Part shown: piece after piece, positions 5,273 through 40,653 of the stretch
How positions within the stretch are numbered: the stretch's first letter is position 1
How the letters are laid out: each line of letters begins with the position of its first letter
NCBI RefSeq assembly: GCF_036365525.1
Contig: NW_027140861.1
Location: forward strand, 186,001 to 250,000
DNA: 64,000 nt
From: Heterodontus francisci
Lineage: Eukaryota
Reading direction: 5' to 3'
Translations under genes and position numbers: made by a program
Notes under the pieces: model-generated
What the model was told of the DNA's origin: nothing
Seen by the model: only the letters and a program-made list of their open reading frames with translations
The model's database searches: none

Positions 5273-5281
5273 GTTATCCAT

Positions 5282-6400: not shown

Positions 6401-6532
6401 AATGAAGTTGAGGTACAAATCAATTATGATCAAATACAAATGCTGTTGCTATCGTTCTCTCTCTCTATCTCCATTCTGCAGTCCCATGTCCCTCACTCCC
6501 CCTAAAGTCTCTCTCCATTCTCCAGTCCCAGT

Positions 6533-6752: not shown

Positions 6753-6814
6753 TGTTGCTTCCCTCAACAGTCTGGGATGAACAGTTTGTGGGGAATCCTT
6801 TTCCCAACTACTGT

Positions 6815-7110: not shown

Positions 7111-7114
7111 GCTG

Positions 7115-7270: not shown

Positions 7271-7399
7271 GCAGAGTGAGTCTACCTCCAAGGAAGACCA
7301 GTGACACTCCAATGTCAATAAGCAGGATGGAAAATCAGTGTGGAGTGAATATTGGAAACTGTAAGATAAACAATGGGTTAAGGGAGAAGGTAGCTGTAA

Positions 7400-8286
7400 A
7401 AGTAACCTAAAGGATACACAGGCAACATTAAAGGCTGCACCACAGACTAAGTCAACCCCAGATACAGGAAACCACAAATAGTGTCAACAGGAACTCGTGT
7501 TTGCTCAGGTTTAAAGTAGACATGTAGAAGTGTGGTGGAACGGCGAATGGTCCAGGAGGGGCTGGAAGATGCAACTGATTGAGATGTTCCTGCTGACAAG
7601 GGCAATACTGACTATCTTAGGGATGGACCCTGCTTAACTATTAGCACAGGCGGGTGGAGTAAGACAAGGAGCCCTGAAACATTCTCGAGCATCTTTAACA
7701 TTTATATCTTGGGAGTAGGGGTGACAGGAGGAGAAGGGAAGTGAGCACCAGCCATGACAGACCCCAGATTTAAATCCTTATTCCTTGTTTGATTATCTCC
7801 CATTCTAAAGGAGAAGGTGGGAGTGTCGGTCCACAAAGGATTGGACTGGGAACAAGCTATATAAGAGGTGACACCAGGTTGGGATCATCCAGCAGGTGAG
7901 TGAGTTTGAGCAGCGGAGACTCAGAAAAGGCAGGTCTCAGCTGTGGACGAGCCTTGTCCCACTAGGGACAGAGACTGGGACTGAGCCAGTCCACAAGCGA
8001 GCCACACACAGTCTGAACTACTCGTACTGTGATAAACCAGGTCATGTGGACAGGAATTGGAGATCTGGGAGAGAAAGGGGGTCCACACTTTGGACGAGCA
8101 CCCTAGGGAGGAGATGGAGGAGAAAGTGATCACATTCACTGCTTTGGACAACAGATTGAGTGATTAGAAACTCTGCTGAACATGGAGAAGATTACTGAGA
8201 GAGTGGCTGCAGCAAGCTGAGGGCCTCCCATTATCCTAAAGTCAAGATCAACAGAAGGAGGCATGGCCAACAGAGAATCCCAATAG
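7400..8286 (+). pseudogene. gag: Decayed ERV gag (lokiretrovirus-like)
   Basis: NLKDTQATLKAA..DTGNHK*CQQE coiled-coil-like part (~7404); capsid-like MTDPRFKSLFLV*LSPILKEKVG..LDWEQAI (7754); broken zinc knuckle (Y)SYCDKPGHVDRN(W) at 8019-8060; stops and frameshifts throughout. Confidence 0.8.
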
Positions 8287-11200
8287 AGAAGGAGAGGACT
8301 CCTCATAGTCAGGAGTGAGGGTCCAATGTGATGGGTTAGGGAGGAGGGAGTGGTCTCCCCACAGTTGAGAGTGAGGGTCCGATGTGATGGGTTAGAGAGG
8401 CGGGAGTGGTCTCCCCACAGTTGGAGTGAGGGTCCGATGTGATAGGTTGGGGAGGAGGGAGTGGGCTCTTCACAGTTGAGAGTGAGGGTCCAATATGATG
8501 GGTTAGGAAGGAGGGACTGGTCTTCCCACAGTTGAGAGTGAGGGTCCGATGTGATAGATTAGGGAGGAGGGAGTGGGCTCCCCACAGTTGAGAGTGAGGG
8601 TCCGATGTGATGGGTTAGGGAGGAGGGAGTGGTCTCCCCACAGTTGGAGTGAGGGTCCGATGTGATGGGTTAGGGAGGAGGGAGTGGTCTCCCCACAGTT
8701 GGAGTGAGTGTCCGATGTGATGGGTTAGGGAGGAGGGAGTGGGCTCCCTACAGTTGGAGTGAGGGTCCGATGTGATAGGTTAGGGAGGAGGGAGTGGGCT
8801 CCCTACAGTTGGAGTGAGGGTCCGATGTGATAGGTTAGGGAGGAGGGAGTGGTCTCCCCACTGTTGAGAGTGAGGGTCCACTGTGATGGGTTAGGGAGGA
8901 GGGAGTGGTCTCCCCACAGTTGGAGTGAGTGTCCGATGTGATCGGTTAGGGAGGAGGGAGTGGTCTCCCCACAGTTGGAGTGAGTGTCCGATGTGATGGG
9001 TTAGGGAGGAGGGAGTGGGCTCCCTACAGTTGGAGTGAGGGTCCGATGTGATAGGTTAGGGAGGAGGGAGTGGGCTCCCTACAGTTGGAGTGAGGGTCCG
9101 ATGTGATAGGTTAGGGAGGAGGGAGTGGTCTCCCCACTGTTGAGAGTGAGGGTCCACTGTGATGGGTTAGGGAGGAGGGAGTGGACTCCCCACAGTTGGA
9201 GTGAGTGTCCGATGTGATCGGTTAGGGAGGAGGGAGTGGTCTCCCCACAGTTGGAGTGAGGGTCCAATGTGATAGGTTAGGGAGGAGGGAGTGGGCTCCC
9301 TACAGTTGGAGTTAGGGTCCGATGTGATAGGTTAGGGAGGAGGGAGTGGGCTCCCTACAGTTGGAGTGAGGGTCCGATGTGATAGGTTAGGGAGGAGGGA
9401 GTGGGCTCCCTGCGGTTGGAGTGAGGGTCCAATATGATGGGTTAGGGAGGAGGGAGTGGTCTCCCCACAGTTGAGAGTGAGGGTCCGATGTGATAGGTTA
9501 GGGAGGAGGGAGTGGTCTCCCCACAGTTGAGAGTGAGGGTCCAATATGATGGGTTAGGGAGGAGGGAGTGGGCTCCCTACAGTTGGAGTGAGGGTCCGAT
9601 GTGATAGGTTAGGGAGGAGGGAGTGGGCTCCCTACAGTTGGAGTGAGGGTCCGATGTGATAGGTTAGGGAGGAGGGAGTGGGCTCCCTACAGTTGGAGTG
9701 ACGGTCCAATGTGATAGGTTAGGGAGGAGCGAGTGGGCTCCCTACAGTTGGAGTGAGGGTCCGATGTGATAGGTTAGGGAGGAGGGAGTGGGCTCCCCAC
9801 AGTTGAGAGTGAGGGTCCGATGTGATAGGTTAGGGAGGAGGGAGTGGTCTCCCCACAGTTGAGAGTGAGGGTCCAATGTGATGGGTTAGGGAGGAGGGAG
9901 TGGTCTCCCCACAGTTGAGAGTGAGGGTCCGATGTGATAGGTTAGGGAGGAGGGAGTGGTCTCCCCACAGTTGAGAGTGAGTGTCTAATGTGATGGGTTA
10001 GGGAGGAGGGAGTGGGCTCCCTACAGTTGGAGTGACGGTCCAATGTGATAGGTTAGGGAGGAGCGAGTGGGCTCCCTACAGTTGGAGTGAGGGTCCGATG
10101 TGATAGGTTAGGGAGGAGGGAGTGGGCTCCCCACAGTTGAGAGTGAGGGTCCGATGTGATAGGTTAGGGAGGAGGGAGTGGTCTCCCCACAGTTGAGAGT
10201 GAGGGTCCAATGTGATGGGTTAGGGAGGAGGGAGTGGTGTCCCCACAGTTGGAGTGAGGGTCCAATGTGATGGGTTAGGGAGGAGGGAGTGGTCTCCCCA
10301 CAGTTGAGAGTGAGGGTCCAATGTGATGGGTTAGGGAGGAGGGAGTGGTCTCCCCACAGTTGAGAGTGAGGGTCCAATGTGATGGGTTAGGGAGGAGGGA
10401 GTGGGCTCCCTACAGTCGGAGTGAGGGTCCGATGTGATAGGGTAGGGAGGAGGGTGTGGGCTCCCCACAGTTGCGAGTGAGGGTCCGATGTGATAGGTTA
10501 GGGAGGAGGGAGTGGTCTCCCTGCAGTTGGAGTGAGGGTCTGATGTGATAGGTTAGGGAGGTGGGAGTGGTCTCCCCACAGTTGAGAGTGAGGGTCCAAT
10601 GTGATGAGTTAGGGAGGAGGGAGTGGTCTCCCCACAGTTGGAGTGTGTCCGATGTGATCGGTTAGGGAGGAGGGAGTGGTCTCCCCACAGTTGGAGTGAG
10701 GGTCCGATGTGATAGGTTAGGGAGGAGGGAGTGGTCTCCCCACAGTTGGAGTGAGTGTCCGATGTGATCGGTTAGGGAGGAGGGAGTGGTCTCCCCACAG
10801 TTGAGAGTGAGGGTCCGATGTGATAGGTTAGGGAGGAGGGAGTGGTCTCCCCACAGTTGAGAGTGAGGGTCCAATGTGATGGGTTAGGGAGGAGGGAGTG
10901 GGCTCCCCACAGTTGAGAGTGAGGGTCCAATGTGATGGGTTAGGGAGGAGGGAGTGGTCTCCCCACAGTTGGAGTGAGGGTCCAATGTGATGTTAGGGAG
11001 GAAGGAGTGGTCTCCCCACAGTTGGAGTGAGTGTCCGATGTGATTGGTTAGGGAGGAGGGAGTGGTCTCCCCACAGTTGGAGTGAGGGTCCGATGTGATC
11101 GGTTAGGGAGGAGGGAGTGGTGTCCCCACAGTTGGAGTGAGGGTCCAATGTGATGGGTTAGGGAGGAGGGAGTGGTCTCCCCACAGTTGGAGTGAGGGTC

Positions 11201-14200
11201 CGATGTGATCGGTTAGGGAGGAGGGAGTGGTCTCCCCACAGTTGGAGTGAGGGTCCAATCTGATGGAGGATTGAGGGAGGAGGGAGTGGTCTCCCCACAG
11301 TTGGAGTGAGGGTCCAATGTGATGGGTTAGGGAGGAGGGAGTGGTCTCCCCACAGTTGAGAGTGAGGGTCCAATGTGATGGGTTAGGGAGGAGGGAGTGG
11401 TCTCCCCACAGTTGAGAGTGAGGGTCCAATGTGATGGGTTAGGGAGGAGGGAGTGGGCTCCCTACAGTCGGAGTGAGGGTCCGATGTGATAGGGTAGGGA
11501 GGAGGGTGTGGGCTCCCCACAGTTGCGAGTGAGGGTCCGATGTGATAGGTTAGGGAGGAGGGAGTGGTCTCCCTGCAGTTGGAGTGAGGGTCTGATGTGA
11601 TAGGTTAGGGAGGAGGGAGTGGTCTCCCCACAGTTGAGAGTGAGGGTCCAATGTGATGAGTTAGGGAGGAGGGAGTGGTCTCCCCACAGTTGGAGTGTGT
11701 CCGATGTGATCGGTTAGGGAGGAGGGAGTGGTCTCCCCACAGTTGGAGTGAGGGTCCGATGTGATAGGTTAGGGAGGAGGGAGTGGTCTCCCCACAGTTG
11801 GAGTGAGTGTCCGATGTGATCGGTTAGGGAGGAGGGAGTGGTCTCCCCACAGTTGAGAGTGAGGGTCCGATGTGATAGGTTAGGGAGGAGGGAGTGGTCT
11901 CCCCACAGTTGAGAGTGAGGGTCCAATGTGATGGGTTAGGGAGGAGGGAGTGGGCTCCCCACAGTTGAGAGTGAGGGTCCAATGTGATGGGTTAGGGAGG
12001 AGGGAGTGGTCTCCCCACAGTTGGAGTGAGGGTCCAATGTGATGTTAGGGAGGAAGGAGTGGTCTCCCCACAGTTGGAGTGAGTGTCCGATGTGATCGGT
12101 TAGGGAGGAGGGAGTGGTCTCCCCACAGTTGGAGTGAGGGTCCGATGTGATCGGTTAGGGAGGAGGGAGTGGTGTCCCCACAGTTGGAGTGAGGGTCCAA
12201 TGTGATGGGTTAGGGAGGAGGGAGTGGTCTCCCCACAGTTGGAGCGAGGGTCCGATGTGATCGGTTAGGGAGGAGGGAGTGGTCTCCCCACAGTTGGAGT
12301 GAGGGTCCAATCTGATGGAGGATTGAGGGAGGAGGGAGTGGTCTCCCCACAGTTGGAGTGAGGGTCCAATCTGATGGAGAATTGAGGGAGGAGGGAGTGG
12401 GCTCCCCACAGTTGAGAGTGAGAGTCCAATGTGATGGGTTAGGGAGGAGGGAGTGGGCTCCCCACAGTTGAGAGTGAGGGTCCGATGTGATAGGTTAGGG
12501 AGGAGGGAGTGGTCTCCCCACAGTTGAGAGTGAGGGTCCAATGTGATGGGTTAGGGAGGAGGGAGTGGGCTCCCTACATTTGGAGTGAGGGTCCGATGTG
12601 ATAGGTTAGGGAGGAGGGAGTGGGCTCCCCACAGTTGAGAGTGAGGGTCCGATGTGATAGGTTAGGGAGGAGGGAGTGGTCTCCCCACAGTTGAGAGTGA
12701 GGGTCCAATGTGATGGGTTAGGGAGGAGGGAGTGGTCTCCCCACAGTTGGAGTGAGGGTCCGATGTGATAGGTTAGGGTGGAGGGAGTGGTCTCCCCACA
12801 GTTGGAGTGAGTGTCCGATGTGATCGGTTAGGGAGGAGGGAGTGGTCTCCCCACAGTTGGAGTGAGTGTCCGATGTGATGGGTTAGGGAGGAGAGAGTGG
12901 TCTCCCCACAGTTGGAGTGAGGGTCCGATGTGATGGGTTAGGGAGGAGGGAGTGGGCTCCCCACAGTTGGAGTGAGGGTCCGATGTGATAGGTTAGGGAG
13001 GAGGGAGTGGGCTCCCCACAGTTGGAGTGAGGGTCCGATGTGATCGGTTAGGGAGGAGGGAGTGGTCTCCCCACAGTTCCAGTGAGGGTCCGATGTGATC
13101 GGTTAGGGAGGAGGGAGTTGTCTCCCCACAGTTGGAGTGAGGGTCTGATGTGATCGGTTAGGGAGGAGGGAGTGGTCTCCCCACAGTCGGAGTGAGGGTC
13201 CGATGTGATCGGTTAGGGAGGAGGGAGTGGTGTCCCCACAGTTGGAGTGAGGGTCCAATGTGATGGGTTAGGGAGGAGGGAGTGGTCTCCCCACAGTTGG
13301 AGTGAGGGTCCGATGTGATCGGTTAGGGAGGAGGGAGTGGTCTCCCCACAGTTGGAGTGAGGGTCCAATCTGATGGAGGATTGAGGGAGGAGGGAGTGGT
13401 CTCCCCACAGTTGGAGTGAGGGTCCAATGTGATGGGTTAGGGAGGAGGGAGTGGTCTCCCCACAGTTGAGAGTGAGGGTCCAATGTGATGGGTTAGGGAG
13501 GAGGGAGTGGTCTCCCCACAGTTGAGAGTGAGGGTCCAATGTGATGGGTTAGGGAGGAGGGAGTGGGCTCCCTACAGTCGGAGTGAGGGTCCGATGTGAT
13601 AGGGTAGGGAGGAGGGTGTGGGCTCCCCACAGTTGCGAGTGAGGGTCCGATGTGATAGGTTAGGGAGGAGGGAGTGGTCTCCCTGCAGTTGGAGTGAGGG
13701 TCTGATGTGATAGGTTAGGGAGGAGGGAGTGGTCTCCCCACAGTTGAGAGTGAGGGTCCAATGTGATGAGTTAGGGAGGAGGGAGTGGTCTCCCCACAGT
13801 TGGAGTGTGTCCGATGTGATCGGTTAGGGAGGAGGGAGTGGTCTCCCCACAGTTGGAGTGAGGGTCCGATGTGATAGGTTAGGGAGGAGGGAGTGGTCTC
13901 CCCACAGTTGGAGTGAGTGTCCGATGTGATCGGTTAGGGAGGAGGGAGTGGTCTCCCCACAGTTGAGAGTGAGGGTCCGATGTGATAGGTTAGGGAGGAG
14001 GGAGTGGTCTCCCCACAGTTGAGAGTGAGGGTCCAATGTGATGGGTTAGGGAGGAGGGAGTGGGCTCCCCACAGTTGAGAGTGAGGGTCCAATGTGATGG
14101 GTTAGGGAGGAGGGAGTGGTCTCCCCACAGTTGGAGTGAGGGTCCAATGTGATGTTAGGGAGGAAGGAGTGGTCTCCCCACAGTTGGAGTGAGTGTCCGA

Positions 14201-16040
14201 TGTGATCGGTTAGGGAGGAGGGAGTGGTCTCCCCACAGTTGGAGTGAGGGTCCGATGTGATCGGTTAGGGAGGAGGGAGTGGTGTCCCCACAGTTGGAGT
14301 GAGGGTCCAATGTGATGGGTTAGGGAGGAGGGAGTGGTCTCCCCACAGTTGGAGCGAGGGTCCGATGTGATCGGTTAGGGAGGAGGGAGTGGTCTCCCCA
14401 CAGTTGGAGTGAGGGTCCAATCTGATGGAGGATTGAGGGAGGAGGGAGTGGTCTCCCCACAGTTGGAGTGAGGGTCCAATCTGATGGAGAATTGAGGGAG
14501 GAGGGAGTGGGCTCCCCACAGTTGAGAGTGAGAGTCCAATGTGATGGGTTAGGGAGGAGGGAGTGGGCTCCCCACAGTTGAGAGTGAGGGTCCGATGTGA
14601 TAGGTTAGGGAGGAGGGAGTGGTCTCCCCACAGTTGAGAGTGAGGGTCCAATGTGATGGGTTAGGGAGGAGGGAGTGGGCTCCCTACATTTGGAGTGAGG
14701 GTCCGATGTGATAGGTTAGGGAGGAGGGAGTGGGCTCCCCACAGTTGAGAGTGAGGGTCCGATGTGATAGGTTAGGGAGGAGGGAGTGGTCTCCCCACAG
14801 TTGAGAGTGAGGGTCCAATGTGATGGGTTAGGGAGGAGGGAGTGGTCTCCCCACAGTTGGAGTGAGGGTCCGATGTGATAGGTTAGGGTGGAGGGAGTGG
14901 TCTCCCCACAGTTGGAGTGAGTGTCCGATGTGATCGGTTAGGGAGGAGGGAGTGGTCTCCCCACAGTTGGAGTGAGTGTCCGATGTGATGGGTTAGGGAG
15001 GAGAGAGTGGTCTCCCCACAGTTGGAGTGAGGGTCCGATGTGATGGGTTAGGGAGGAGGGAGTGGGCTCCCCACAGTTGGAGTGAGGGTCCGATGTGATA
15101 GGTTAGGGAGGAGGGAGTGGGCTCCCCACAGTTGGAGTGAGGGTCCAATGTGATCGGTTAGGGAGGAGGGAGTGGTCTCCCCACAGTTCCAGTGAGGGTC
15201 CGATGTGATCGGTTAGGGAGGAGGGAGTTGTCTCCCCACAGTTGGAGTGAGGGTCTGATGTGATCGGTTAGGGAGGAGGGAGTGGTCTCCCCACAGTCGG
15301 AGTGAGGGTCCGATGTGATCGGTTAGGGAGGAGGGAGTGGTCTCCCCACAGTTGAGAGTGTGGGTCCGATATGATCGGTTAGGGAGGAGGGAGTGGTCTT
15401 CCCACAGTCGGAGTGAGGGTCCGATGTGATCGGTTAGGGAGGAGGGAGTGGTCTTTCCACAGTCGGAGTGTGGGTCCGATGTGATCGGTTAGGGAGGAGG
15501 GAGTTGTCTCCCCACAGTTGAGAGTGAGTGTCCAATCTGATGGAGGATTGAGGGAGGAGTGGTGTCCCTACAGCTGGTATAAGGGTCCAATGTGATGGGA
15601 GAGTGAGGTGGGGTGTTCTCCCCACAGTCGGAGTGAGGGTCTGATGTGATAGGGGCGTGAGGAGGGAGTGGTCTTCCCACAGTCGGAGTGAGGGCCTGAT
15701 GTGATAGGGGCGTGAGGAGGGAGTGGTCTTCCCACAGTCGGAGTGAGGGTCTGATGTGATAGGGGCGTGAGGAGGGAGTGGTCTTCCCACAGTCGGAGTG
15801 AGGGTCTGATGTGATAGGGGCGTGAGGAGGGAGTGGTCTTCCCACAGTCGGAGTGAGGGTCTGATGTGATAGGGCCGTGAGGAGGGAGTGGTCTCCCCAC
15901 AGTCGGAGTGAGGGTCCAATGTGATGGGTTAGGGAGGAGGGAGTGGTCTTCCCACAGTCGGAGTGAGGGTCCGATGTGATAGGGGCGTGAGGAGGGAGTG
16001 GTCTTCCCACAGTCGGAGTGAGGGTCTGATGTGATGGGGT
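8284..16040 (+). repeat. 55/56-bp G-rich minisatellite TTAGGGAGGAGGGAGTGGTCTCCCCACAGTTG(A)GAGTGAGGGTCCGATGTGATGGG, ~140 copies
   Basis: Tandem units visible; identical ORFs offset by 2110 bp (11103/13213, 11714/13824, 12155/14265) and 1052 bp (10662/11714). Confidence 0.98.
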
Positions 16041-16635
16041 TGCTCTACCCAGTTGTTCTGGTTGGCCACAGACAGGATTTATTGATAAACACTGGATCAT
16101 TATTGACCATCACACATACCTCACAGTGTCAAACCCAGCCAATGAGGAAAGGGAAACTTGCTTCACTTTCAGGCTTTAACAGGCTGGTTATCCCAGAATA
16201 TGAAGCTCAGTCATGTTACATAGAAATTGTAGACAGTTTATGGTTGTGGGTACAGGAGCCCATCCTGGTGACTATAACAGGAAACTCGGGTAAACTGGGC
16301 TCTGATGTGTTCTCTGTGGTGGGGATGTGTGTTAAATATATAATGGATAACTGCATCTACATGTTGTGTCAGGAAGGAATGTTGAAATGTCAGATGCTTA
16401 CAAGGTTTGTGCTGTTCAGAAACCTGAGGTCTCTCTGTTCCCAATGCACAGAGACAGAGCCCTATAAGAACATTGCAAAATACACCAGCAAGTTTGTTAA
16501 ACACAAACACAACTGCAGAAAGTTAGCAGGAGTGGAATACATAACAGGGTCACCTCACCAAACCCGAAAGGAATTCCCTATACCTGAGGAGAGTGAACCT
16601 CATTATCAAGACCAACCTTGATCTACTTTTTTCAG
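16031..16635 (+). pseudogene. pol: ERV protease plus N-terminus of reverse transcriptase, truncated
   Basis: LLINTGSLLTIT = aspartic protease DTG with D>N; flap-like LSGFN; LGSD motif; RT start FVKHKHNCRKLAGVEYITGSPHQTRKEFPIPEESE, then IIKTNLDLL in a shifted frame. Confidence 0.85.
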
Positions 16636-16680
16636 TCAAACCCACTGCACTGTCAGTGGAAATATTCTTTTTATGTGATG

Positions 16681-26206: not shown

Positions 26207-26410
26207 ATACAGGTTAAGAGAGTGGATGATGCTGTGGTAAATGGTGTTTAATGTGGGGAAGTGAGTCGTCATCCACTTTGGACACAACAAAGATAAATGG
26301 TGAAAAACTCAGGACTATTGAGAATCAAAGCGATTTGTTTTAAAAAACAAGAAATGCTGGAAATGTTCAGCCGATCAGGCAGCATCAGTGGTGAGAAAAA
26401 CCACGTTAAT
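26207..26410. mobile_element. Short CR1 RT fragment (+) followed by a decayed Penelope-terminus fragment (-)
   Basis: TTTAATGTGGGGAAGTG..GTCATCCACTTTGG (FNVGK..V.HFG); AAAAACAAGAAATGCTGGAAATGTTCAG..TCAGGCAGCATC. Confidence 0.6.
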
Positions 26411-27044
26411 AATCCGGTGTTTACTGAGGTGGGATTTTCTAGCTGGGGAGAAGAGTTCAGACTGGGTAACCCCTGACTCCATATTTAGATGGCAGCGTGG
26501 AGTTTTAACTACACATTGTGCATTTGTTTTTTTAACAGGTTCCCTGCCCCAATCCCCAGTCTGATTGACAGGCTCAGCTCTCTGGAGGGAGTGAAACACT
26601 GCAGAAAGGCTCGAGCTCAGGAGCAGGAAGTTTCATGCTGCTTAGGGTAAAGATTGCAGGGTCACAGAGGGTGGGGTGGGGGGCGGGTGAGGGGGGTTAC
26701 AGCAAGGTGTCGAGGGTCCGGGTGGGATCGTGTGGGGGATGGGGGTCAGAGAGAGATGGGGCAGAGATGGTGGATCAGAGACAATACAGAATGATCAGAG
26801 GGGAGGGTGTGTCATATATCAGAGAAAGAGAAGGAAAGGGTCAAGGAGCAATCATAGAGGAATTAGAGGGAATACAGATAGAGATCAGAGGGAGAAATCT
26901 GAGGGAGAGTTTGGTGGGAGAAATTGGTAGGGGGCCTATGGGAGATCAGAGGGAGATTTTGGAGGGGGATCAGGGTGAGATTGGAGCGGTGGGGGATAAA
27001 TCTGAGGGAGATTTTGGAGGGAACTGGGTGAGATTGGAGGAATG

Positions 27045-30000: not shown

Positions 30001-33000
30001 AGGGAGAGATTGGAGGGTCTGGTCACAGAGAGATCAGAGGGAAAGATTGGAGGGTCTGGTCACAGAGAGATCAGAGGGAGAAATTGGAGGGTGTGGTCAC
30101 AGAGAGATCAGAGGGAAAGATTGGAGGGTGTGGTCACAGAGAGGTCAGAGGGAGAGATTGGAGGGTGTGGTCACAGAGAGATCAGAGAGAGAGATTGGAG
30201 GGTGTGGTCACAGAGAGGTCAGAGGGAGAGATTGGAGGGTGTGGTCACAGAGAGATCAGAGGGAGAGATTGGAGGGTCTGGTCACAGAGAGATCAGAGAG
30301 AGAGATTGGAGGGTCTGGTCACAGAGAGATCAGAGGGAGAGATTGGAGGGTGTGGTCACAGAGAGATCAGAGGAAGAGATTGGAGGGTGTGGTCACAGAG
30401 AGATCAGAGGGAGAGATTGGAGGGTGTGGTCACAGAGAGATCAGAGGGAGAGATTGGAGGGTGTGGTCACAGAGAGATCAGAGGGAGAGATTGGAGGGTG
30501 TGGTCACAGAGAGGTCAGAGGGAGAGATTGGAGGGTGTGGTCACAGAGAGATCAGAGGGAGAGGTTGGAGGGTGTGGTCACAGAGAGATCAGAGGGAGAG
30601 ATTGGAGGGTGTGGTCACAGAGAGATCAGAGGGAAAGATTGGAGGGTGTGGTCACAGAGAGATCAGAGAGAGTGATTGGAGGGTGTGGTCACAGAGAGAT
30701 CAGAGGGAGAGATTGGAGGGTGTGGTCACAGAGAGATCAGAGGGAGAGATTGGTGGGTGTGGTCACAGAGAGATCAGAGGGAGAGATTGGAGGGTGTGGT
30801 CACAGAGAGCTCAGAGGGAGAGATTGGAGGGTGTGGTCACAGAGAGATCAGAGGGAGAGATTGTAGGGTGTGGTCACAGAGAGGTCAGAGGGAGAGATTG
30901 GTGGGATGTCATAGAGAGATCAGAGGGAGAGATTGGAGGGTGTGGTCACAGAGAGATCAGAGGGAGAGATTGGAGGGTGTGGTCACAGAGAGATCAGAGG
31001 GAGAGATTGGAGGGTGTGGTCACAGAGAGATCAGAGGGAGAGATTGGTGGGTGTGGTCACAGAGAGATCAGAGGGAGAGATTGGAGGGTGTGGTCACAGA
31101 GAGATCAGAGGGAGAGATTGGTGGGTGTGGTCACAGAGAGCTCAGAGGGAGGGATTGGAGGGTGTGGTCACAGAGAGATCAGAGGGAGAGATTGGTGGGT
31201 GTGGTCACAGAGAGGTCAGAGGGAGGGATTGGAGGGTGTGGTCACAGAGAGGTCAGAGGGAGAGATTGGTGGGATGTCACAGAGAGATCAGAGGGAGAGA
31301 TTGGAGGGTGTGGTCACAGAGAGATCAGAGGGAGAGATTGGAGGGTGTGGTCACAGAGAGCTCAGAGGGAGAGATTGGAGGTTGTGGTCACAGAGAGATC
31401 AGAGGGAGAGATTGGAGGGTGTGGTCACAGAGAAATCAGAGGGATAGATTGGAGGGTGTGGTCACAGAGAGATCAGAGGGAGAGATTGGAGGGTCTGGTC
31501 ACAGAGAGATCAGAGGGAAAGATTGGAGGGTCTGGTCACAGAGAGATCAGAGGGAGAAATTGGAGGGTGTGGTCACAGAGAGATCAGAGGGAAAGATTGG
31601 AGGGTGTGGTCACAGAGAGGTCAGAGTGAGAGATTGGAGGGTGTGGTCACAGAGAGATCAGAGAGAGAGATTGGAGGGTGTGGTCACAGAGAGGTCAGAG
31701 GGAGAGATTGGAGGGTGTGGTCACAGAGAGATCAGAGGGAGAGATTGGAGGGTCTGGTCACAGAGAGATCAGAGAGAGAGATTGGAGGGTCTGGTCACAG
31801 AGAGATCAGAGGGAGAGATTGGAGGGTGTGGTCACAGAGAGATCAGAGGAAGAGATTGGAGGGTGTGGTCACAGAGAGATCAGAGGGAGAGATTGGAGGG
31901 TGTGGTCACAGAGAGATCAGAGGGAGAGATTGGAGGGTGTGGTCACAGAGAGATCAGAGGGAGAGATTGGAGGGTGTGGTCACAGAGAGGTCAGAGGGAG
32001 AGATTGGAGGGTGTGGTCACAGAGAGATCAGAGGGAGAGGTTGGAGGGTGTGGTCACAGAGAGATCAGAGGGAGAGATTGGAGGGTGTGGTCACAGAGAA
32101 ATCAGAGGGAGAGATTGGAGGGTGTGGTCACAGAGAGATCAGAGGGAGAGATTGGAGGGTCTGGTCACAGAGAGATCAGAGGGAAAGATTGGAGGGTCTG
32201 GTCACAGAGAGATCAGAGGGAGAGATTGGTGGGTCTGGTCACAGAGAGATCAGAGGGAAATATTGGAGGGTGTGGTCACAGAGAGGTCAGAGGGAGAGAT
32301 TGGAGGGTGTGGTGACAGAGAGATCAGAGGGAGAGATTGGAGGTTGTGGTCACAGAGAGGTCAGAGGGAGAGATTGGAGGGTGTGGTCACAGAGAGATCA
32401 GAGGGAGAGATTGGAGGGTCTGGTCACAGAGAGATCAGAGAGAGAGATTGGAGGGTCTGGTCACAGAGAGATCAGAGGGAGAGATTGGAGGGTGTGGTCA
32501 CAGAGAGATCAGAGGGAAAGATTGGAGGGTGTGGTCACAGAGAGATCAGAGAGAGTGATTGGAGGGTGTGGTCACAGAGAGATCAGAGAGAGAGATTGGA
32601 GGGTGTGGTCACAGAGAGATCAGAGGGAGAGATTGGTGGGTGTGGTCACAGAGAGATCAGAGGGAGAGATTGGAGGGTGTGGTCACAGAGAGCTCAGAGG
32701 GAGAGATTGGAGGGTGTGGTCACAGAGAGATCAGAGGGAGAGATTGTAGGGTGTGGTCACAGAGAGGTCAGAGGGAGAGATTGGTGGGATGTCACAGAGA
32801 GATCAGAGGGAGAGATTGGAGGGTGTGGTCACAGAGAGATCAGAGGGAGAGATTGGAGGGTGTGGTCACAGAGAGATCAGAGGGAGAGATTGGAGGGTGT
32901 GGTCACAGAGAGATCAGAGGGAGAGATTGGAGGGTGTGGTCACAGAGAGATCAGAGGGAGAGATTGGTGGGTGTGGTCACAGAGAGATCAGAGGGAGAGA

Positions 33001-34855
33001 TTGGAGGGTGTGGTCACAGAGAGATCAGAGGGAGAGATTGGTGGGTGTGGTCACAGAGAGCTCAGAGGGAGGGATTGGAGGGTGTGGTCACAGAGAGATC
33101 AGAGGGAGAGATTGGTGGGTGTGGTCACAGAGAGGTCAGAGGGAGGGATTGGAGGGTGTGGTCACAGAGAGGTCAGAGGGAGAGATTGGTGGGATGTCAC
33201 AGAGAGATCAGAGGGAGAGATTGGAGGGTGTGGTCACAGAGAGATCAGAGGGAGAGATTGGAGGGTGTGGTCACAGAGAGCTCAGAGGGAGAGATTGGAG
33301 GTTGTGGTCACAGAGAGATCAGAGGGAGAGATTGGAGGGTGTGGTCACAGAGAAATCAGAGGGAGAGATTGGAGGGTGTGGTCACAGAGAGATCAGAGGG
33401 AGAGATTGGAGGGTCTGGTCACAGAGAGATCAGAGGGAAAGATTGGAGGGTCTGGTCACAGAGAGATCAGAGGGAGAAATTGGAGGGTGTGGTCACAGAG
33501 AGATCAGAGGGAAAGATTGGAGGGTGTGGTCACAGAGAGGTCAGAGGGAGAGATTGGAGGGTGTGGTCACAGAGAGATCAGAGAGAGAGATTGGAGGGTG
33601 TGGTCACAGAGAGGTCAGAGGGAGAGATTGGAGGGTGTGGTCACAGAGAGATCAGAGGGAGAGATTGGAGGGTCTGGTCACAGAGAGATCAGAGAGAGAG
33701 ATTGGAGGGTCTGGTCACAGAGAGATCAGAGGGAGAGATTGGAGGGTGTGGTCACAGAGAGATCAGAGGAAGAGATTGGAGGGTGTGGTCACAGAGAGAT
33801 CAGAGGGAGAGATTGGAGGGTGTGGTCACAGAGAGATCAGAGGGAGAGATTGGAGGGTGTGGTCACAGAGAGATCAGAGGGAGAGATTGGAGGGTGTGGT
33901 CACAGAGAGGTCAGAGGGAGAGATTGGAGGGTGTGGTCACAGAGAGATCAGAGGGAGAGGTTGGAGGGTGTGGTCACAGAGAGATCAGAGGGAGAGATTG
34001 GAGGGTGTGGTCACAGAGAAATCAGAGGGAGAGATTGGAGGGTGTGGTCACAGAGAGATCAGAGGGAGAGATTGGAGGGTCTGGTCACAGAGAGATCAGA
34101 GGGAAAGATTGGAGGGTCTGGTCACAGAGAGATCAGAGGGAGAGATTGGTGGGTCTGGTCACAGAGAGATCAGAGGGAAAGATTGGAGGGTGTGGTCACA
34201 GAGAGGTCAGAGGGAGAGATTGGAGGGTGTGGTCACAGAGAGATCAGAGAGAGAGATTGGAGGTTGTGGTCACAGAGAGGTCAGAGGGAGAGATTGGAGG
34301 GTGTGGTCACAGAGAGATCAGAGGGAGAGATTGGAGGGTCTGGTCACAGAGAGATCAGAGAGAGAGATTGGAGGGTCTGGTCACAGAGAGATCAGAGGGA
34401 GAGATTGGAGGGTGTGGTCACAGAGAGATCAGAGGGAGAGATTGGAGGGTCTGGTCACAGAGAGATCAGAGAGAGAGATTGGAGGGTGTGGTCACAGAGA
34501 GGTCAGAGGGAGAGATTGGAGGGTGTGGTCACAGAGAGATCAGAGGGAGAGATTGGAGGGTGTGGTCACAGAGAGATCAGAGAGAGAGATTGGAGGGTGT
34601 GGTCACAGAGAGATCAGAGGGAGAGATTTGAGGGTCTGGTCACAGAGAGATCAGAGAGAGAGATTGGAGGGTGTGGTCACAGAGAGGTCAGAGGGAGAGA
34701 TTGGAGGGTGTGGTCACAGAGAGATCAGAGGGAGAGATTGGAGGGTGTGGTCACAGAGAGATCAGAGAGAGAGAGTGGAGGGTGTGGTCACAGAGAGATC
34801 AGAGAGAGAGATGGGAGGGTCTGGTCACAGAGAGATCAGAGAGAGAGATTGGAGG
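27045..34855 (+). repeat. 37-bp purine-rich minisatellite GATTGGAGGGTGTGGTCACAGAGAGATCAGAGGGAGA, ~210 copies, with degenerate GA-rich flanks (26740-27045, 34855-35115)
   Basis: 37-aa periodic ORFs in all three + frames; 1920-bp near-perfect duplication (e.g. 31081 = 33001) and a 997-bp duplication (27722/28719). Confidence 0.98.
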
Positions 34856-35115
34856 CAGGTCAGGGAGTGATCCAAAGAAGAGTTTGGAAGGGGTCAGGGA
34901 CAGATCGAAGGGAGAGATTAGAGGGAGACTGGAGGGAGAAATTCGAAGGAGGTTTCGGGGAGACTGGAGGGAGAGATAGGAGGGAGGTTGGTGTGAGATT
35001 GGAGGGAGAGATCAGAGGGAGGATAGGGGTGAAATTGGAAGGAGAGATTGGAGGGAACAATCGGAGGGAGAGACTGGAAGGAGGTCAGTGTGAGATTGGA
35101 GAGAGCGATCAGGGG

Positions 35116-35283
35116 AGGTTCTGGGACAACTCAGAATGCACCTATTCAAGAATAGACCAACCTCCACTCAACAGAACGCCTCAAGAAAGAAGACGGTGCC
35201 ACAGCAGCTCGGGAAGCAAGGACCAAGGACACCCTATATCCTGCTGCACAACTACTGCTGTTGGTTAAGTATTGCTTGTATAT
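35116..35283 (+). mobile_element. Partial LTR related to the LTR at 40358-40653
   Basis: 35116-35217 aligns without gaps to 40416-40517, 79/102 identical by hand count; similarity continues with indels to ~35283. Confidence 0.75.
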
Positions 35284-36669
35284 TATTATTGTAAATCTCC
35301 AAGGACCACTTGGGTGAAGACCTGTGGGATCCCCTCCCCCTAATCTTCCTGTTAATGTGGTTTTGAAGATTTTAAATCAAGCGGGACAGCAGACAGGAAC
35401 TATCTCCCGATCCCAGCCCCTGAGCCCAAGTGATTTCCAAGCCTGGGTCCATGAGATAGGCACTGTTGAAATGGGGACTTAGTGTGAATTGAGAATTTTG
35501 GAACTTGAAATAGATTGCCCATGAGGAAGAATGGATAAAAGGAAAAGAAATGATGATAGCCCATCGTAAAGGTTAGGACGGTGTGTGAGCGACCGGATTG
35601 GTCGTGATAAGAAGTTCAAGTTGAAACTGTCACTGCTCAGCTATCCAGCTCAGCTCCTGTGTCGAGACATTTAAACCAAGAGTAACTCCTGTCTGTGTGA
35701 TTCTGTATGTGTGTGTGCTCAGTGTCCTGTATCACTGAAATGTAGATTAATTAACCCTCTTTAGTCCAGTTTTGCATGCTGTTTTCAAGTTATTGCTTGT
35801 TTAATGTGTGTACTGCATACATTTGTATCAATGTTGGGTTAAACAAGAAAAGGATAAGTTCTGTTGAAATGAAGGAGAACGGAAGATGTGAAGTTTTCGT
35901 GTTCTGTCCCTTTAAGAATCTCCCTGTGACTGAAAGCCCTGCTTAACAGGCTGCAAAAGGTTTGCTGGGTGATTTTCTTTTTGGGCTATTAATGTTGAAT
36001 GCTTCCTTTTGGTTTGTGGAATTAAATCTTTAGTTATTGCAGCATTTATAAAAGGTACCTGAAGAAAGAAGACAAGTGATGTAATTTATTTTCTTCTTTT
36101 CCCTTTTAAAGGAAAAGTATGTGTTTATTCTGTTCTGTGTTTAGTTGATAAGTAGGTTTAAGTTATTAAAGTTGAAAAGACCCAGAGTGGCTGCAGTGTA
36201 TGTGAGAGGAAGCTTCCGAATTTCTGAATGAAAGACCTTTTCTCAGTTTGGGTTTGTGCGCGATTCTTTTGTTTGAATGTTTTTTGTGTGTCCTCTTCAC
36301 TGCAGTGAACTGAAAGCTGTTTAACCCTTTCTGGTCTGGAGTGCAACTTGTTTTAAATTGTCTGTTTCATGTGTGTGTGCATTTGTAATAATTATTTTTT
36401 AATTATCCATAGAACTCGCAATCTGCGATAGATTTGGCACTTTGTGTTAAATATGCGAATTATAAGCAGTCTAAAGGGATGGGGAATTAATAAAGTAAAC
36501 CATTTTAAGTTGTGAAATTCATTGGTGCTCACAGTGACATTCTAGTTATGATGATAAAACGTGAGAATTTTATTCCGATACAAATCCACACATGTTAGAA
36601 TGGGATGGTTTTAATGTTAGACAGTGTAAATTGCATTTTGGGTTGTTTGAAGCGTTTATGATTAATAAT

Positions 36670-36805
36670 AAATAAAAGCAAAATACTGCGGATGCTGGAA
36701 ATCTGAAATAAAAACAGAACGTGCTGGAAATACTCAGCAGGTCTGGCAGCATCTATGGAGAGAGAAGCAGAGTTCATGGTTTCAGGTCAGTGACCTTTCA
36801 TCAGA
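36670..36805 (-). mobile_element. Solo Penelope-type terminal unit with a hammerhead ribozyme motif
   Basis: Minus strand CTGATGA-A-AGGTC ACT GACCT-GAAAC ... GATGCTGCCAGACCTGCTGAGTATTTCCAGC ... TTTTATTT; possible TSD TAATAAAT/TAATGAAT. Confidence 0.75.
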
Positions 36806-38164
36806 TAATGAATGTCGAGTTGTTCTTGGGTTAGAGACATTTTCACAAAAGTTAAAAGTTTCTTTTTGGGAATCATTGGAGTTCTTGCTCTGAAATAGTT
36901 GTGAAAAGGAATTCAGTAAAAGTTTAAAAAGCCTTTCTTTGTTCAGAAGAAAACAGGTTGAATTGGTTTGTCTAATCATCAAATGCATTTGTTTCTAGAT
37001 TTAAAAAAAGAGAGGGCTTGGAATGTTGGAGCAAATAAAGTGAGCATAACGTTCTGAAATCTGAGCAAGTTTTAGGGGGAAAGAAAAGATATCACAAGAG
37101 TTTGAAATAAAAGAACAGTCTCATAGGAAAAATTCAGGTATTTACTTTGTGAAAAAAAACCCAGTTCAAACTAGCCAAAGCACATGGCAATGCCTTTGTT
37201 ATTTTCTTTTTTTTTGAAAGGAGGGTGATGATAACATCAAGGGTCCATCTGCGAGTTTTTGTTCAAAGCAGCAGAGAGTTAACCCCCTCCGCCAGCAGCT
37301 TAGCTCACTGCACAACCTTTAGTTCATTGAAGATTTATATGCAGTATATGGGCATTATGAAATTTTAAGTTGATAAATTAACAAATATGATTCGACATCA
37401 TAACCCATTGGGATCCTAACCAGAACCAAATGGATTCTCTGTTTTTGTTAAAGAGGTGATGCTGGTATAGCAAGAACAGCAAGAAATCATAGAATGAACA
37501 AGAAATGTGAAGGTCGCCTCTAAACACATGCAAGCACTTTTGTCTGATATAAAAGCACCATTTAAAACCACCAAGCCTGGGGATAATTATTTCTAAAATA
37601 GGAATTGATAAAACAAATTGGGATAAACAAAATTTTAATTTTCAAAAAATAAACTACACTTATGCCTGCTGGTAAACTGTTACTGGGTAAGGTGTTGTGT
37701 AGGTGAGGGCTACCACGACAGTGAGATAGTGATTAAGGGTCTGTCTGATGCCTGTTTTAAAGACAGGTGGGTAATGGACTGTAGAGGTTCTCCAGGGCTC
37801 AGAAATAAAAGAGAATTATAATTAATGAGAATTCGAAATAAAAATCTGGCTGGTGCGAGAGGTAATAAAGGAATGTTAGGGACAAAAAATGGCAGAATCA
37901 GAATTCAAACTAATGTTCATAATTTCCAGGAAGTCCAGAATTTTCCAGTAAGAGTTAGGAAAGTGTAGTTAAGAATTATAAATTGATAGCTTTCCCTTGG
38001 AGATTTGTGTCCTTGCCTACGTTGTTTTTTAAGAGAACTGATTGACATTCTGGCCACTACCCAAAGCATTCAGACCATGCAGGGGGAGATGAACAAGGCT
38101 CTCGAGACACCTTCCCACCACCTCCCCTTTTTCATCTTGTGTTAAGATCACCAGAGAGTCAGGA

Positions 38165-38501
38165 ATTTATTTATTTATTCAGAGATACAGCACTGAAACA
38201 GGCCCTTGGGCACACCGAGTCTGTGCCGACCAACAACCACCCATTTATACTAATCTTACATTAACCCTATATTCTCTACCACATCCCCACCATTCTCCTA
38301 CCACCTACCTACACGAGGGGCAATTTACTAATCAACCTGCAAGTCTTTGGCTGTGGGAAGAAACCGGAGCACCCGGCGGAAACCCACACAGACACAAGGA
38401 GAACTTGCAAACTCCGCACAGGCAGTACCCAGAACTGAACCCGGGTCGCTGGAGCTGTGAGGCTGGGCTGTGGTGCTAACCACTGCGCCACTGTGCCACC
38501 C
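38165..38501 (-). mobile_element. HE1-type tRNA-derived shark SINE
   Basis: Head GGGTGGCACAGTGGCGCAGTGGTTAGCAC, core GGGTGCTCCGGTTTCTTCCCACA, CR1-like tail GGGCCTGTTTCAGTGCTGTATCTCT(AATA)n. Confidence 0.9.
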
Positions 38502-38689
38502 ATGTGTGACATGATATTGGGACACTGGTGTAAGTGTGCAAATGTGATGTGTTACGGGTAAACTAACATGCAGAATGCACAATGCAATGCACTGAAGAAC
38601 AGGTCTCTGACAGGTTCACCTACTCCACAGGGAATGGTTAACGTGGCCAATAGAGTGAAACATGTTTTAAATTGTCAAGGCATTGTCAC

Positions 38690-39761
38690 ATATTCCATAG
38701 AGTAACTGACTTTAAAACAATTAGAATAGAATTAAACACACTGGAAATGGGCAGAAGTAGTAAGATGAAAGTTCAGAGAGACAGTTGAAGGGCTAGGAAT
38801 GATCCACATGATGGATATGGTAAAGAGAGAGCTGGAGAATCATTCAAGTCCATGCCTGATCTGTTACTTGAAACAAAAGTACTGAGAACAGGACAATCAT
38901 TTAGAATTAACAAGCTTCAGCAAAAGAATAAAGTATTGATCTTGGGAATCTTGAATTACTGCAACAGTTGTTAAGGAACAGATAATAATGAGGAATCACA
39001 TTGTTAGATACAAAAATCCACCTATTTATATCTCCCTGATCAATGAAACCACCTGGGTTGCCCCTGACTTGTCTGGGGGTCTCCAGTCAGAGGATGTCTT
39101 TGTTTGCCCATATGATATTGTAGAAAACTCTGCTCCAGCATGTGGATTTACCTGGAACAAAGATCCCCTCAACTGTACAATGGAAATAGTGAGTGGAGAG
39201 GAGTTCCCCAATCACTCTGTCTACCAAGGTGAGGGAAGTTATTGTGTTGTTACTACCCACACAGAGTATACATATGACAGTTTAATGTGTCAAATAAAGA
39301 AGGGAGAATTTTGTTTTAGTCCCTCTCTAAGGGCTCAGATAGTAAACAAGGTCCTATTCAGTATAAGGAATCATCAGCAAATAAATATCACTGTTAAAGA
39401 TGACCTCAAGGAGCAGTTATATCAATATGTCAGTAGATTTGTTTATGGCATTCCCCCTTTTCCTGAACATCTGACTGAGCTATTGCAAAGACTCAATACA
39501 TCCAACAAACACTTTTATGTCCTGCAACAATAAAATGAGGAAATTAAAAAGGAAATCCCTGAGATAGGGGATGAGAGTCACTGGTGTGACATTGAAATAC
39601 CCCCTTGGATCAGGATTATTTCCCATGTCTTTGTAATCGTTCAATAGGTGATAATTCTGATTTTGGTGTGTGCGTTAAGACAAATCATGGGGATGATAAA
39701 GAAAATGAGAATTAGACAGGAGACCATGAAAGAATATGCCCCACTTAAGGGTAATGTATGA
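38690..39761 (+). pseudogene. env: ERV env remnant, class I fusion protein of paramyxo/pneumovirus-F type (lokiretrovirus-like)
   Basis: ORF 38988-39533 is a Cys-rich ectodomain (PDLSG.LQSEDVFVCP...ACG...NCTMEIVSG...GSYCV). Reading through the stops gives heptad NEEIKKEI, W-containing linker, TM PPWIRIISHVFVIVQ*VIILILVCAL and a basic tail ending TGA 39759-39761. Confidence 0.8.
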
Positions 39762-40340
39762 GGGATCAATGCCATCTGGTATTTTACCCTCACAGTGGGC
39801 ACTGTAGGAACTAAGGGGTTAACTGCCATGTTTAATCTGTTGGATGAATCTGTGCGAGTTGTGGCCTGATACAATTCACATGAGGTGCTATGTTTTAAAG
39901 TAGAATAATTTGAAATGATATTGTGGTTATGTTCAGGAATAGTTATACTTTGTATATGTATCAATGTATTATATTAGAATTAAGTTCTGGACCTTGTGTT
40001 TGGAATCATGTTGTTATGTGAAATGTATATTTGTACGCTGTATTGGAGAGATGGTGGAAGACGGTTTAACTGTAACAACAATAGTTTAAGTGACTTTGCG
40101 ATGAGACAGGATGTTTTGATAAGTACCTTACTGCATTTCAATTAAGACAGGCTCAGGGTCGGAATAATTGATAGACTTGTCGGCCTCATGATGGAAATGT
40201 AAATAAAGGTGTTCGGAGACTATTCATGACTGGAATGTTTATGAGGATAGCAAACATTCCCCATTGTGTGACAATGACTTAGGCCATCAAGCTATCTTCA
40301 GAGACAATGTATGAAAGGTGAGGTCATACCTGATCAATCG

Positions 40341-40653
40341 AAAGGGTTCAGGTGGAATGTAACCTAATATGGAATGAAGGAACCGTCGGAGGATCAGGGT
40401 GCGGGTATAAATGAAAGGTGCTGAGAGACATCAGCACACACAGATTTGAGAAGAGACCATCCTGCAGTCAACAGAACACCTCAAGAGAGAAGACTTCACC
40501 ACAACAGCTCGGGAAGCCAAACTGAGGGCACTCTGCTGTTTAACTACTGCCATTGGTTTAGAATTGTTTGCAAATCCTTGCTGTGCTTAATGAACTCACT
40601 ATCTTGACTTAAGAATACAGAGAAAGAACCTGGTTGGTTAAAAGCGAGTTACA
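40341..40653 (+). mobile_element. Polypurine tract plus 3' LTR (~296 bp)
   Basis: AAAGGGTTCAGGTGGAA directly before TGTAAC (40358); GTTACA at 40648-40653; GGTATAAATG TATA box ~40404; 3' end tentative because there is no perfect AATAAA. Confidence 0.7.

What the first reader, a model, noticed from the sequence alone, without database searches (positions are those of the whole stretch)
7400..40653. Lokiretrovirus-like endogenous retrovirus scattered over 33 kb by satellite expansion
Seen: gag (capsid-like segment, broken CCHC), protease (NTG), RT start (KHKHNC..ITG..RKEFPIP), env with TM, PPT and a TG..CA LTR, all on + and in canonical order, separated by ~25 kb of three satellites. Known: lokiretroviruses are a sister lineage of retroviruses whose Env resembles Mononegavirales fusion proteins. 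Inference: this belongs to that group. Standard LTR/ERV finders would probably miss it because of the spacing.
Basis: partly seen in the sequence, partly recalled or inferred. Interest (0 to 1): 0.8.

Follow-up and report, generated by a model that had tools for sequence, protein, structure and literature searches.

The report
Shark retrovirus fossil split by satellites
These are broken remains of an ancient retrovirus, probably in a shark genome and pulled apart by large tandem repeats; they most likely belong to the snakehead-retrovirus group rather than to lokiretroviruses, and the envelope gene is of a little-annotated type that folds like paramyxovirus fusion proteins.

Summary
The pieces are mostly real: three arrays (24,964 bp), a degraded gag, a protease/RT-start frame, the 3' half of an env and an LTR-like end, all on +. 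The env has 24 hits among 1.84 billion proteins; 12 of 14 named ones are from sharks or rays, 2 from frogs. A full-length homolog folds like paramyxo/pneumovirus F.

The lokiretrovirus label is not supported. The F-like fold is shared with foamy Env and weakly with walleye epsilonretrovirus Env. The cysteine pattern differs from 12 of 12 published Loki Envs read. By eye, the RT start matches the published SnRV-related shark ERV (18 of 37 columns, same protease-RT spacing), not Loki or epsilon-like shark ERVs.

'One provirus over 33 kb' is doubtful. Gag and protease flank array 1 and probably belong together. But RT core, RNase H, integrase, 5' env and a 5' LTR were not found, and a 75%-identical LTR-like piece lies at 35.1 kb, so the env block may be a second insertion.

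Best reading: dead SnRV-clade (class III) ERV remains carrying an F-like Env. No RT tree was possible.

The parts
7180..8308 (+). Degraded gag-like region: capsid-like segments in shifting frames, broken CCHC knuckle near 8024-8065, frame ending in TAG at 8306-8308. The 5' limit is a by-eye estimate.
   Evidence: Translations; Pfam PF16588 E 0.064; by-eye likeness to CmiERV lineage I gag. Weak.
8312..16038 (.). Array 1, 55-bp unit, about 139 copies, lying exactly between the gag-like stop and the protease start
   Evidence: Unit not found elsewhere in the window; flank-resembles-unit test weak (left 15 of 793 tiles score as high, right 76 of 793).
16040..16621 (+). Protease (catalytic triad reads NTG at 16088) plus about 40 residues of RT start (HKH at 16502), then a stop; the rest of pol was not found
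   Evidence: Atlas lead to retroviral aspartyl proteases, score 0.87; 18 of 37 columns identical to CmiERV lineage I by hand comparison.
16767..26197 (.). Array 2, 33-bp unit, about 286 copies; it lies inside what I recall as a shark SINE (about 16680-26203), not in viral sequence
   Evidence: The SINE label is recalled and comes from no call.
26198..27049 (+). Non-viral interval: LINE RT fragment (about 26210-26300), a short host repeat (26343-26399), an exon-like stretch and purine-rich DNA
   Evidence: LINE piece scores 71 against the RVT_1-positive frame at 47462-47905 (0 of 500 shuffles reach it); the repeat matches 36710-36766.
27050..34855 (.). Array 3, 37-bp unit, about 211 copies, grading into degenerate purine-rich repeats on both sides (to 35118)
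35116..35292 (+). Second LTR-like piece, matching 40416-40584 of the 3' LTR (126 of 169 aligned bases identical, K2P 0.32); lacks U3/TATA and the LTR end
   Evidence: score 150; best of 30 shuffles 39.
35293..38987 (+). Unassigned 3.7 kb: possible second capsid-start fragment at about 35340-35570, AT-rich DNA, host repeats at 36670-36805 and 38181-38501; no detectable 5' env
   Evidence: The second-gag signal is marginal.
38988..39746 (+). 3' half of an F-like env: cysteine-rich domain, heptad, transmembrane helix, short tail. One frame, stops at 39531 and 39645.
   Evidence: fold shown through homolog P0011.
39755..40653 (+). Candidate 3' LTR, 899 bp, TG..CA, TATAA at 40406, preceded by a weak purine tract
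   Evidence: No full paired copy in the window; target-site duplication untestable.

Best explanation
Dead endogenous retrovirus remains of the snakehead-retrovirus clade (class III, clade Huo) in a cartilaginous fish. Shown: the pieces, their order, the env family and that family's F-like fold. Inferred: (1) gag and protease-RT start are one insertion, with array 1 amplified or inserted at their junction. (2) The source virus made Gag-Pol by reading through an amber stop, as SnRV does. (3) It entered cells with a furin-cleaved, paramyxovirus-F-like (class Ib) fusion protein, possibly with an N-terminal Ig-like domain. (4) After integration most of pol and 5' env were lost, host repeats inserted, and arrays grew by unequal exchange or slippage. 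The env-LTR block is either the far end of the same provirus or a second, related insertion; I put these near even. Nothing here can encode a working protein of the virus.
For: RT start: 18 of 37 columns identical to CmiERV scaffold 2, and about 137 versus 138 codons from the protease triad to HKH (hand-translated). Han 2015 places that element with SnRV. The two epsilon-like CmiERVs lack the motif. Loki-Str has a different motif and a spacer of roughly 550 residues; Loki-Tfu shares the Loki motif. SnRV uses UAG readthrough; a TAG sits at 8306-8308 next to array 1. Env: 24 hits, best E 2.6e-38; 12 of 14 named hits chondrichthyan, 2 anuran. The P0011 model matches Newcastle disease virus F (Foldseek E 5.9e-10; Z 10.6, rmsd 19.4, 363 aligned). 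Window env is 31% identical to P0011 over 228 aa. No ISD or CX6CC in 17 of 17 rows.
Against: The lineage call rests on about 40 residues and one reference, compared by eye with no statistic and no tree. No database search gave a significant hit for protease or gag. The published shark SnRV-related element carries a gamma-type env, not this one (by eye). No SnRV Env row appears in the 50 BFVD rows shown, three of which have no name. The window's own env model gave no fold match at E<=0.001 (best: a henipavirus-like F, E 0.086). A foamy-like lineage was not excluded by direct comparison. The host is inferred, not identified.
Confidence: 0.62

Rival explanations
1. One lokiretrovirus provirus stretched over 33 kb. 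It would be the first Loki element in cartilaginous fish.
For: The Env family is F-like. By eye it shares overall layout with Loki Env. Canonical gene order on one strand. None of the 6 chondrichthyan assemblies found in the Loki paper's table carries the asterisk that marks positive hosts there (meaning of the asterisk inferred), so a gap exists.
Against: No PF00523 hit for the window env or any of 26 proteins scanned (24 hits and 2 cluster members), whereas Loki Env hits it at 2.2e-7. 12 of 12 Loki Envs read across the cysteine-rich domain lack the three later cysteines of the window env. RT-start motif and spacing differ from Loki. No 5' LTR; an LTR-like piece lies inside.
Confidence: 0.07
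2. Two or more neighbouring insertions: an SnRV-like gag-pro fragment (7.2-16.6 kb) and a separate, internally deleted LTR-leader-env-LTR element (35.1-40.65 kb) whose pol lineage is unknown. This is compatible with the best explanation for the gag-pro block but leaves the env unlinked to it.
For: LTR-like piece at 35116-35292. A possible second capsid start just after it (score 46, 0 of 500 shuffles under one scoring scheme). Only 1,257 non-array bases lie between the RT stop and that piece, and those identified are host repeats. Gag looks far more decayed than env.
Against: At K2P 0.32 the two LTR-like copies are too divergent to be the pair of one insertion, given only 2 stops and no frameshift in 253 env codons. 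The second-gag signal fades under two other schemes (24 and 22 of 500) and is uncorrected p about 0.01 among 54 frame pairs. Same strand and correct order favour one element.
Confidence: 0.45
3. A foamy-like (clade Tu) shark ERV.
For: Foamy Env shares the F core and scores Z 8.5 and 8.2 against the homolog model. Shark foamy-like ERVs are known from pol only in the study read.
Against: A CCHC-like knuckle is present (weak), whereas spumavirus Gag lacks one. Homolog Envs are 580-750 aa without a large insertion. The RT start matches CmiERV lineage I closely.
Confidence: 0.15
4. The gag-pro piece is a Gypsy/Metaviridae retrotransposon fragment and only the env block is retroviral.
For: The nearest Atlas clusters for the protease are generic retropepsins, several from arthropods or plants. 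No RT core is present to test.
Against: Close match of the RT start and spacing to a published retrovirus. The Atlas scores are under 0.9 and are not a taxonomic tool.
Confidence: 0.08

Closest known systems
CmiERV lineage I, scaffold 2 (Han 2015, PMC4422223), SnRV-related; clade Huo of Xu et al. 2018 (PMC6001957)
   Same: RT-start motif (18 of 37 columns), protease-to-RT spacing, single CCHC gag, cartilaginous-fish host (inferred).
   Different: CmiERV-I is complete with paired LTRs and has a gamma-type env (ISD and CX6CC-like motif, by eye). The window is fragmentary and its env is F-like.
Lokiretroviruses (Wang and Han 2021, PMC7947760)
   Same: F-like Env with similar overall layout; retroviral gene order.
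   Different: Env cysteine pattern, no PF00523 hit, short protease-RT spacer, different RT-start motif; not reported from Chondrichthyes in that paper.
Foamy virus Env and paramyxo/pneumovirus F, 'class Ib' (Fernandez et al. 2024, PMC11468914)
   Same: Shared structural core by model of homolog P0011.
   Different: 10-14% identity; no large receptor-binding insertion in the homologs; several homologs have an N-terminal extension that may be Ig-like (UniRef label; V-set E 0.045; unresolved in the model).
Walleye epsilonretrovirus Env (WEHV1, WDSV)
   Same: BFVD fold match to the homolog model, E 4.4e-8 and 8.3e-7.
   Different: Much longer proteins and low TM-scores (0.24/0.15 and 0.10/0.07); the epsilon-like shark RT starts do not match the window.

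Membership tests
Lokiretrovirus | RT groups in the Loki clade, sister to other retroviruses | not testable with these tools
   RT core is absent from the window; reference sequences could only be read, not aligned.
Lokiretrovirus | Loki-type protease-to-RT spacer and RT-start motif | tested here: not met
   138 codons here versus roughly 550 residues in Loki-Str (counted by eye; 1 of 24 Loki Pols read in full). Motif differs from Loki-Str and Loki-Tfu.
Lokiretrovirus | Env related to Mononegavirales F | tested here: met
   Met through homolog P0011. The window's own model is inconclusive. The feature is shared with foamy Env, so it is not diagnostic.
Lokiretrovirus | Env of the Loki sequence family (PF00523 hit; Loki cysteine pattern) | tested here: not met
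   No PF00523 hit. 12 of 12 Loki Envs read over this domain lack the three later cysteines; a 13th is truncated, and 10 of the 23 listed were not read.
Lokiretrovirus | Signal peptide, RXKR site, fusion peptide, coiled coil in Env | tested here: inconclusive
   5' env not found in the window. 5 of 6 longer homologs checked have a basic furin-like site.
Lokiretrovirus | Tether plus RNase H; CGIN1-like integrase | not testable with these tools
   These domains were not found in the window.
Lokiretrovirus | gag-pol-env flanked by two LTRs | tested here: not met
   No match to the 3' LTR in 5255-7500 above shuffles (38 versus shuffle maximum 50); the only second copy is internal and partial.
SnRV clade (class III, clade Huo) | RT start and protease-RT spacing like CmiERV lineage I | tested here: met
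   18 of 37 columns, about 137 versus 138 codons; hand comparison with one reference. A proxy, not the defining tree.
SnRV clade (class III, clade Huo) | RT/Pol phylogeny with SnRV | not testable with these tools
   No RT core in the window.
SnRV clade (class III, clade Huo) | Gag with one zinc knuckle; Gag-Pol by amber readthrough | tested here: inconclusive
   Knuckle E 0.064; TAG at 8306-8308, but the array hides the junction. SnRV features.
SnRV clade (class III, clade Huo) | Env homologous to SnRV Env | not tested
   A resemblance is recalled only; no SnRV Env sequence was on hand.
Gamma-type Env ERVs (Chen et al., 10.1101/2021.11.23.469661) | ISD and CX6CC in the TM ectodomain | tested here: not met
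   Neither motif in 17 of 17 C-terminal stretches, the window's included.
Epsilon-like shark ERVs (CmiERV II/III) | RT-start motif and long protease-RT insert | tested here: not met
   By eye, neither of the 2 published elements has the HKH motif, and both have longer spacers.
Foamy-like ERVs | RT in clade Tu; Gag without zinc knuckle | tested here: inconclusive
   Weak knuckle present; no foamy-like RT start was on hand to compare.
Metaviridae (Gypsy) | RT groups with Ty3/Gypsy | not testable with these tools
   No RT core; only indirect evidence against.

The most novel reading that the evidence does not exclude
The env marks an unannotated family of F-like (class Ib) retroviral envelopes, some with an N-terminal Ig-like domain, spread through sharks, rays and frogs and belonging to SnRV-clade viruses. 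With foamy, Loki and walleye epsilonretrovirus Env also F-like, this fold would sit on every deep branch of the Retroviridae. That would make it the ancestral retroviral Env and gamma/beta-type Env the later replacement (scenario 3 or 1 of Wang and Han).
Probability: 0.3. Interest if true: 0.72.

Novelty: new member of a known kind. Interest (0 to 1): 0.4.

Why it matters
The locus itself is a dead fragment of a clade already known from sharks, and tandem repeats tied to transposable elements have precedent (PMC3389668, search listing only). Its value is as a pointer. (1) It leads to a family of F-like Env proteins that databases list as 'uncharacterized'. (2) It shows that an F-like Env should not be used to call a lokiretrovirus. 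(3) If this Env is tied to SnRV-clade pol, the open question of which Env the first retroviruses carried becomes testable from existing shark and frog assemblies. (4) RT-seeded and LTR-pair ERV screens would miss such loci, since the RT core and the LTR pair are absent (inference).

Tried and rejected
Word-indexed homolog searches found nothing: env, 0 of 392 candidates; protease-RT against longer proteins, 0 of 511; env alignment against 1312-3745 aa proteins, meant to find pol-env fusions, 0 of 2890. PDB sequence searches: one irrelevant hit for env, only weak helical matches for the profile, none for protease. Pfam gave nothing for 6 of 7 window pieces and one irrelevant weak hit. The fold search with the window's own env model gave no hit at E<=0.001 and only single helices in the wide search.

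Frameshift-aware scoring of 16 upstream homolog parts against 35293-38990: best 40 versus shuffle maxima 34-42, with only 6 shuffles each; 1 of 16 exceeded its own maximum, and that match fell in a host repeat. The CmiERV-I primer-binding motif had 0 matches with up to 3 mismatches. Rfam had 0 hits. In-situ origin of arrays from their flanks was only weakly supported. The env tree (17 rows; of the 24 hits, P0010, P0015, P0021, P0022, P0024, P0026, P0028, P0031 and P0032 were left out, P0033 standing in for P0010) puts the window among mostly chondrichthyan rows with no supported sister. P0026 was dropped as a fibronectin-repeat false positive. P0001 was a wrong frame.

Literature: no paper describing this Env family, or an F-like SnRV or epsilon Env, appeared in searches. 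The library lacks most subscription papers, PMC9972966 on cartilaginous-fish foamy viruses was not held, and bioRxiv supplements were closed.
Full report
Observation. Tandem Repeats Finder confirms three arrays between the viral-looking pieces: 8312-16038 (55 bp, 139 copies), 16767-26197 (33 bp, 286) and 27050-34855 (37 bp, 211), 24,964 bp in all. Translation shows a gag-like region broken by stops and frame changes, a stop-free frame at 16022-16621 with NTG at 16088 and HKH at 16502, and an env-like frame with a hydrophobic helix at 39615-39671. A TG..CA segment of 899 bp spans 39755-40653, with TATAA at 40406 and only a weak purine tract before it (8 of 15 bases).

Env. phmmer of the single-frame env translation against 1.84 billion representatives gave 24 hits, best E 2.6e-38; one is a fibronectin-repeat false positive. 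I looked up 20 of the 24: 14 carry names, 12 from sharks or rays (Heptranchias, Chiloscyllium, Pristiophorus, Heterodontus, Rhinoraja) and 2 from frogs (Pelodytes, Xenopus); none is annotated as an envelope. This is my main basis for a cartilaginous-fish host. The homologs match only 38988-39746; the cleavage site, fusion peptide and first heptad were not found upstream, even with frameshift-aware scoring. The stretch has 2 stops in 253 codons and no frameshift. It lacks the ISD and CX6CC of gamma-type Env, as do the 16 homolog stretches checked.

Fold. The window's own model (mean pLDDT 60) gave no significant match; the top row was a henipavirus-like F at E 0.086. The full-length Chiloscyllium homolog P0011, 31% identical to the window env over 228 residues, gave a model (pLDDT 60, residues 1-179 unresolved) that matches Newcastle disease virus, RSV, hPIV3 and hMPV F at E down to 6e-10. 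In the wide search the top 13 rows are all F proteins or foamy Env: NDV F Z 10.6 (rmsd 19.4, 363 aligned), measles F 9.0, foamy Env 8.5 and 8.2. The Atlas agrees (top cluster 0.95, 21% PF00523). So the Env family is F-like.

Why that does not make it Loki. Foamy Env shares the F core (PMC11468914, abstract and one results section read). BFVD also lists WEHV1 Env (E 4.4e-8), WDSV Env (8.3e-7) and feline foamy Env (2.7e-5), with low TM-scores. Loki Env hits PF00523 (PMC7947760, three of four parts of the main text and supplement passages read), but neither the window env nor 26 related proteins do. In 12 of 12 published Loki Envs that I could read across the cysteine-rich domain, the three later cysteines of the window env (in YCV, a single C, and FCF) are absent; 10 of 23 were not read. 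By eye the two families share a layout, so they are probably distant homologs.

Pol. No database search gave a significant hit; the Atlas points to retropepsins at 0.87, a lead only. The informative comparison was by hand. Han 2015 (PMC4422223, first of two parts of the text and the sequence supplement read) gives three elephant-shark ERVs, lineage I clustering with snakehead retrovirus. Its RT start aligns with the window's at 18 of 37 columns with one gap, and the distance from the protease triad is about 137 codons against 138 here. The two epsilon-like elements lack the motif and have longer spacers. Loki-Str has about 550 residues in that interval and a different motif, which Loki-Tfu shares. 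This favours the SnRV clade, which occurs in all major vertebrate lineages (PMC6001957, passages). It is one reference, about 40 residues, and no tree. CmiERV-I has a gamma-type env, and Pol-Env mismatches are common in anamniote ERVs (10.1101/2021.11.23.469661, three of six parts read). I recall that SnRV's own Env resembles this family, but that was not tested.

Gag. Evidence is weak: a zinc-knuckle hit at E 0.064 and by-eye likeness to CmiERV-I capsid segments. A gag-like frame ends in TAG at 8306-8308, three bases before array 1, and the protease starts at the array's other edge. SnRV reads through a UAG between gag and pol (PMC13517186, passages). I infer that gag and protease are one insertion split at this junction; the test that the array unit came from its flanks was weak.

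One provirus or two. No copy of the LTR lies upstream of gag. The only second copy is internal: 35116-35292 matches 40416-40584 at 126 of 169 bases, K2P 0.32. That is too divergent to be the partner LTR of an env so little decayed, so it may be a piece of a related family. Only 1,257 non-array bases separate the RT stop from it, and those I could identify are a LINE RT fragment and a host repeat; array 2 lies in what I recall as a shark SINE. A possible second capsid start at 35340-35570 is marginal. RT core, RNase H and integrase were not found. One heavily deleted provirus and two adjacent insertions are about equally open.

Mechanism. Shown: inert fragments, an F-like Env family, arrays with long exact internal duplications (1958 bp at lag 2110 in array 1, 1278 bp at lag 1947 in array 2, 971 bp at lag 3396 in array 3), which fit recent unequal exchange or assembly duplication. 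Inferred: an SnRV-clade virus with amber readthrough and a furin-cleaved class Ib fusogen integrated in the germ line, lost most of pol and 5' env, gathered host repeats, and was spread apart by array growth.

Novelty. SnRV-related ERVs in sharks are known, so the element is a new member of a known kind. I found no description of this Env family in nine searches, within a library that lacks most subscription journals; bioRxiv supplements could not be seen. Viro3D (10.1101/2024.12.19.629443, two passages) already finds this fold in reverse-transcribing viruses and expects more in Retroviridae, so the broad idea is anticipated. Other papers consulted as passages only: PMC13709493 (plus one section), 10.1101/2023.10.26.564294, PMC5512871, PMC10699275 (first part), 10.1101/2024.03.17.585361, PMC12193657, PMC2717909, PMC12456133.

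Verdict. Observation partly confirmed; Loki label unlikely (0.07); SnRV-clade remains with an F-like Env most likely (0.62); linkage of env to gag-pro unresolved. Interest 0.4; 0.72 if the ancestral-Env reading holds (probability 0.3).

Noticed in passing
window 8312-16038, 16767-26197, 27050-34855: Each array holds a near-kb or longer exact internal duplication (1958, 1278 and 971 bp): recent higher-order expansion or assembly artefact.
   Followed up: partly
window 26520-26650: Pyrimidine tract plus AG, a 35-codon open stretch and a GT donor-like end; could be a host exon on +. No Pfam hit.
   Followed up: partly
window 1-5254, 6527-6703, 6822-7110, 43867-44620, 50959-51850: Five or more further tandem arrays (47, 32, 64, 54, 69, 72 bp units). 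The whole region is array-prone, not only the ERV.
   Followed up: no
window 40803-42290 (-), 44928-45422 (+), 46738-47908 (+), 58876-59244 (-): LINE remains: RVT_1 hits (E 5.6e-28, 1e-4, 7e-4) and endonuclease hits. The first begins about 150 bp after the LTR end.
   Followed up: partly
window 44627-44715 and 50582-50673: ARAGORN calls tRNA-Thr; both lie in a repeat with several copies in the window, so probably tRNA-derived SINE heads.
   Followed up: partly
proteins P0014 and P0020: Database gene models fuse this env family to a cadherin-related gene (Pristiophorus) and to fbxo15 (Heterodontus): mis-annotation or exonisation.
   Followed up: no
proteins P0011, P0017, P0030: Long, apparently intact Env open frames of 723-749 aa in a shark, a frog and an unnamed record: candidates for young or co-opted env genes.
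   Followed up: partly
rank 1: The best BFVD match to the homolog model is the glycoprotein of Wenling thamnaconus septentrionalis filovirus, a fish filovirus (E 1.3e-12), ahead of paramyxovirus F.
   Followed up: no
window 52534-53943 (-) and 48800-50460 (+): A 469-codon GC-rich open frame and a degraded coding region that I recall as Tx1-like LINE parts; no significant Pfam hit.
   Followed up: no
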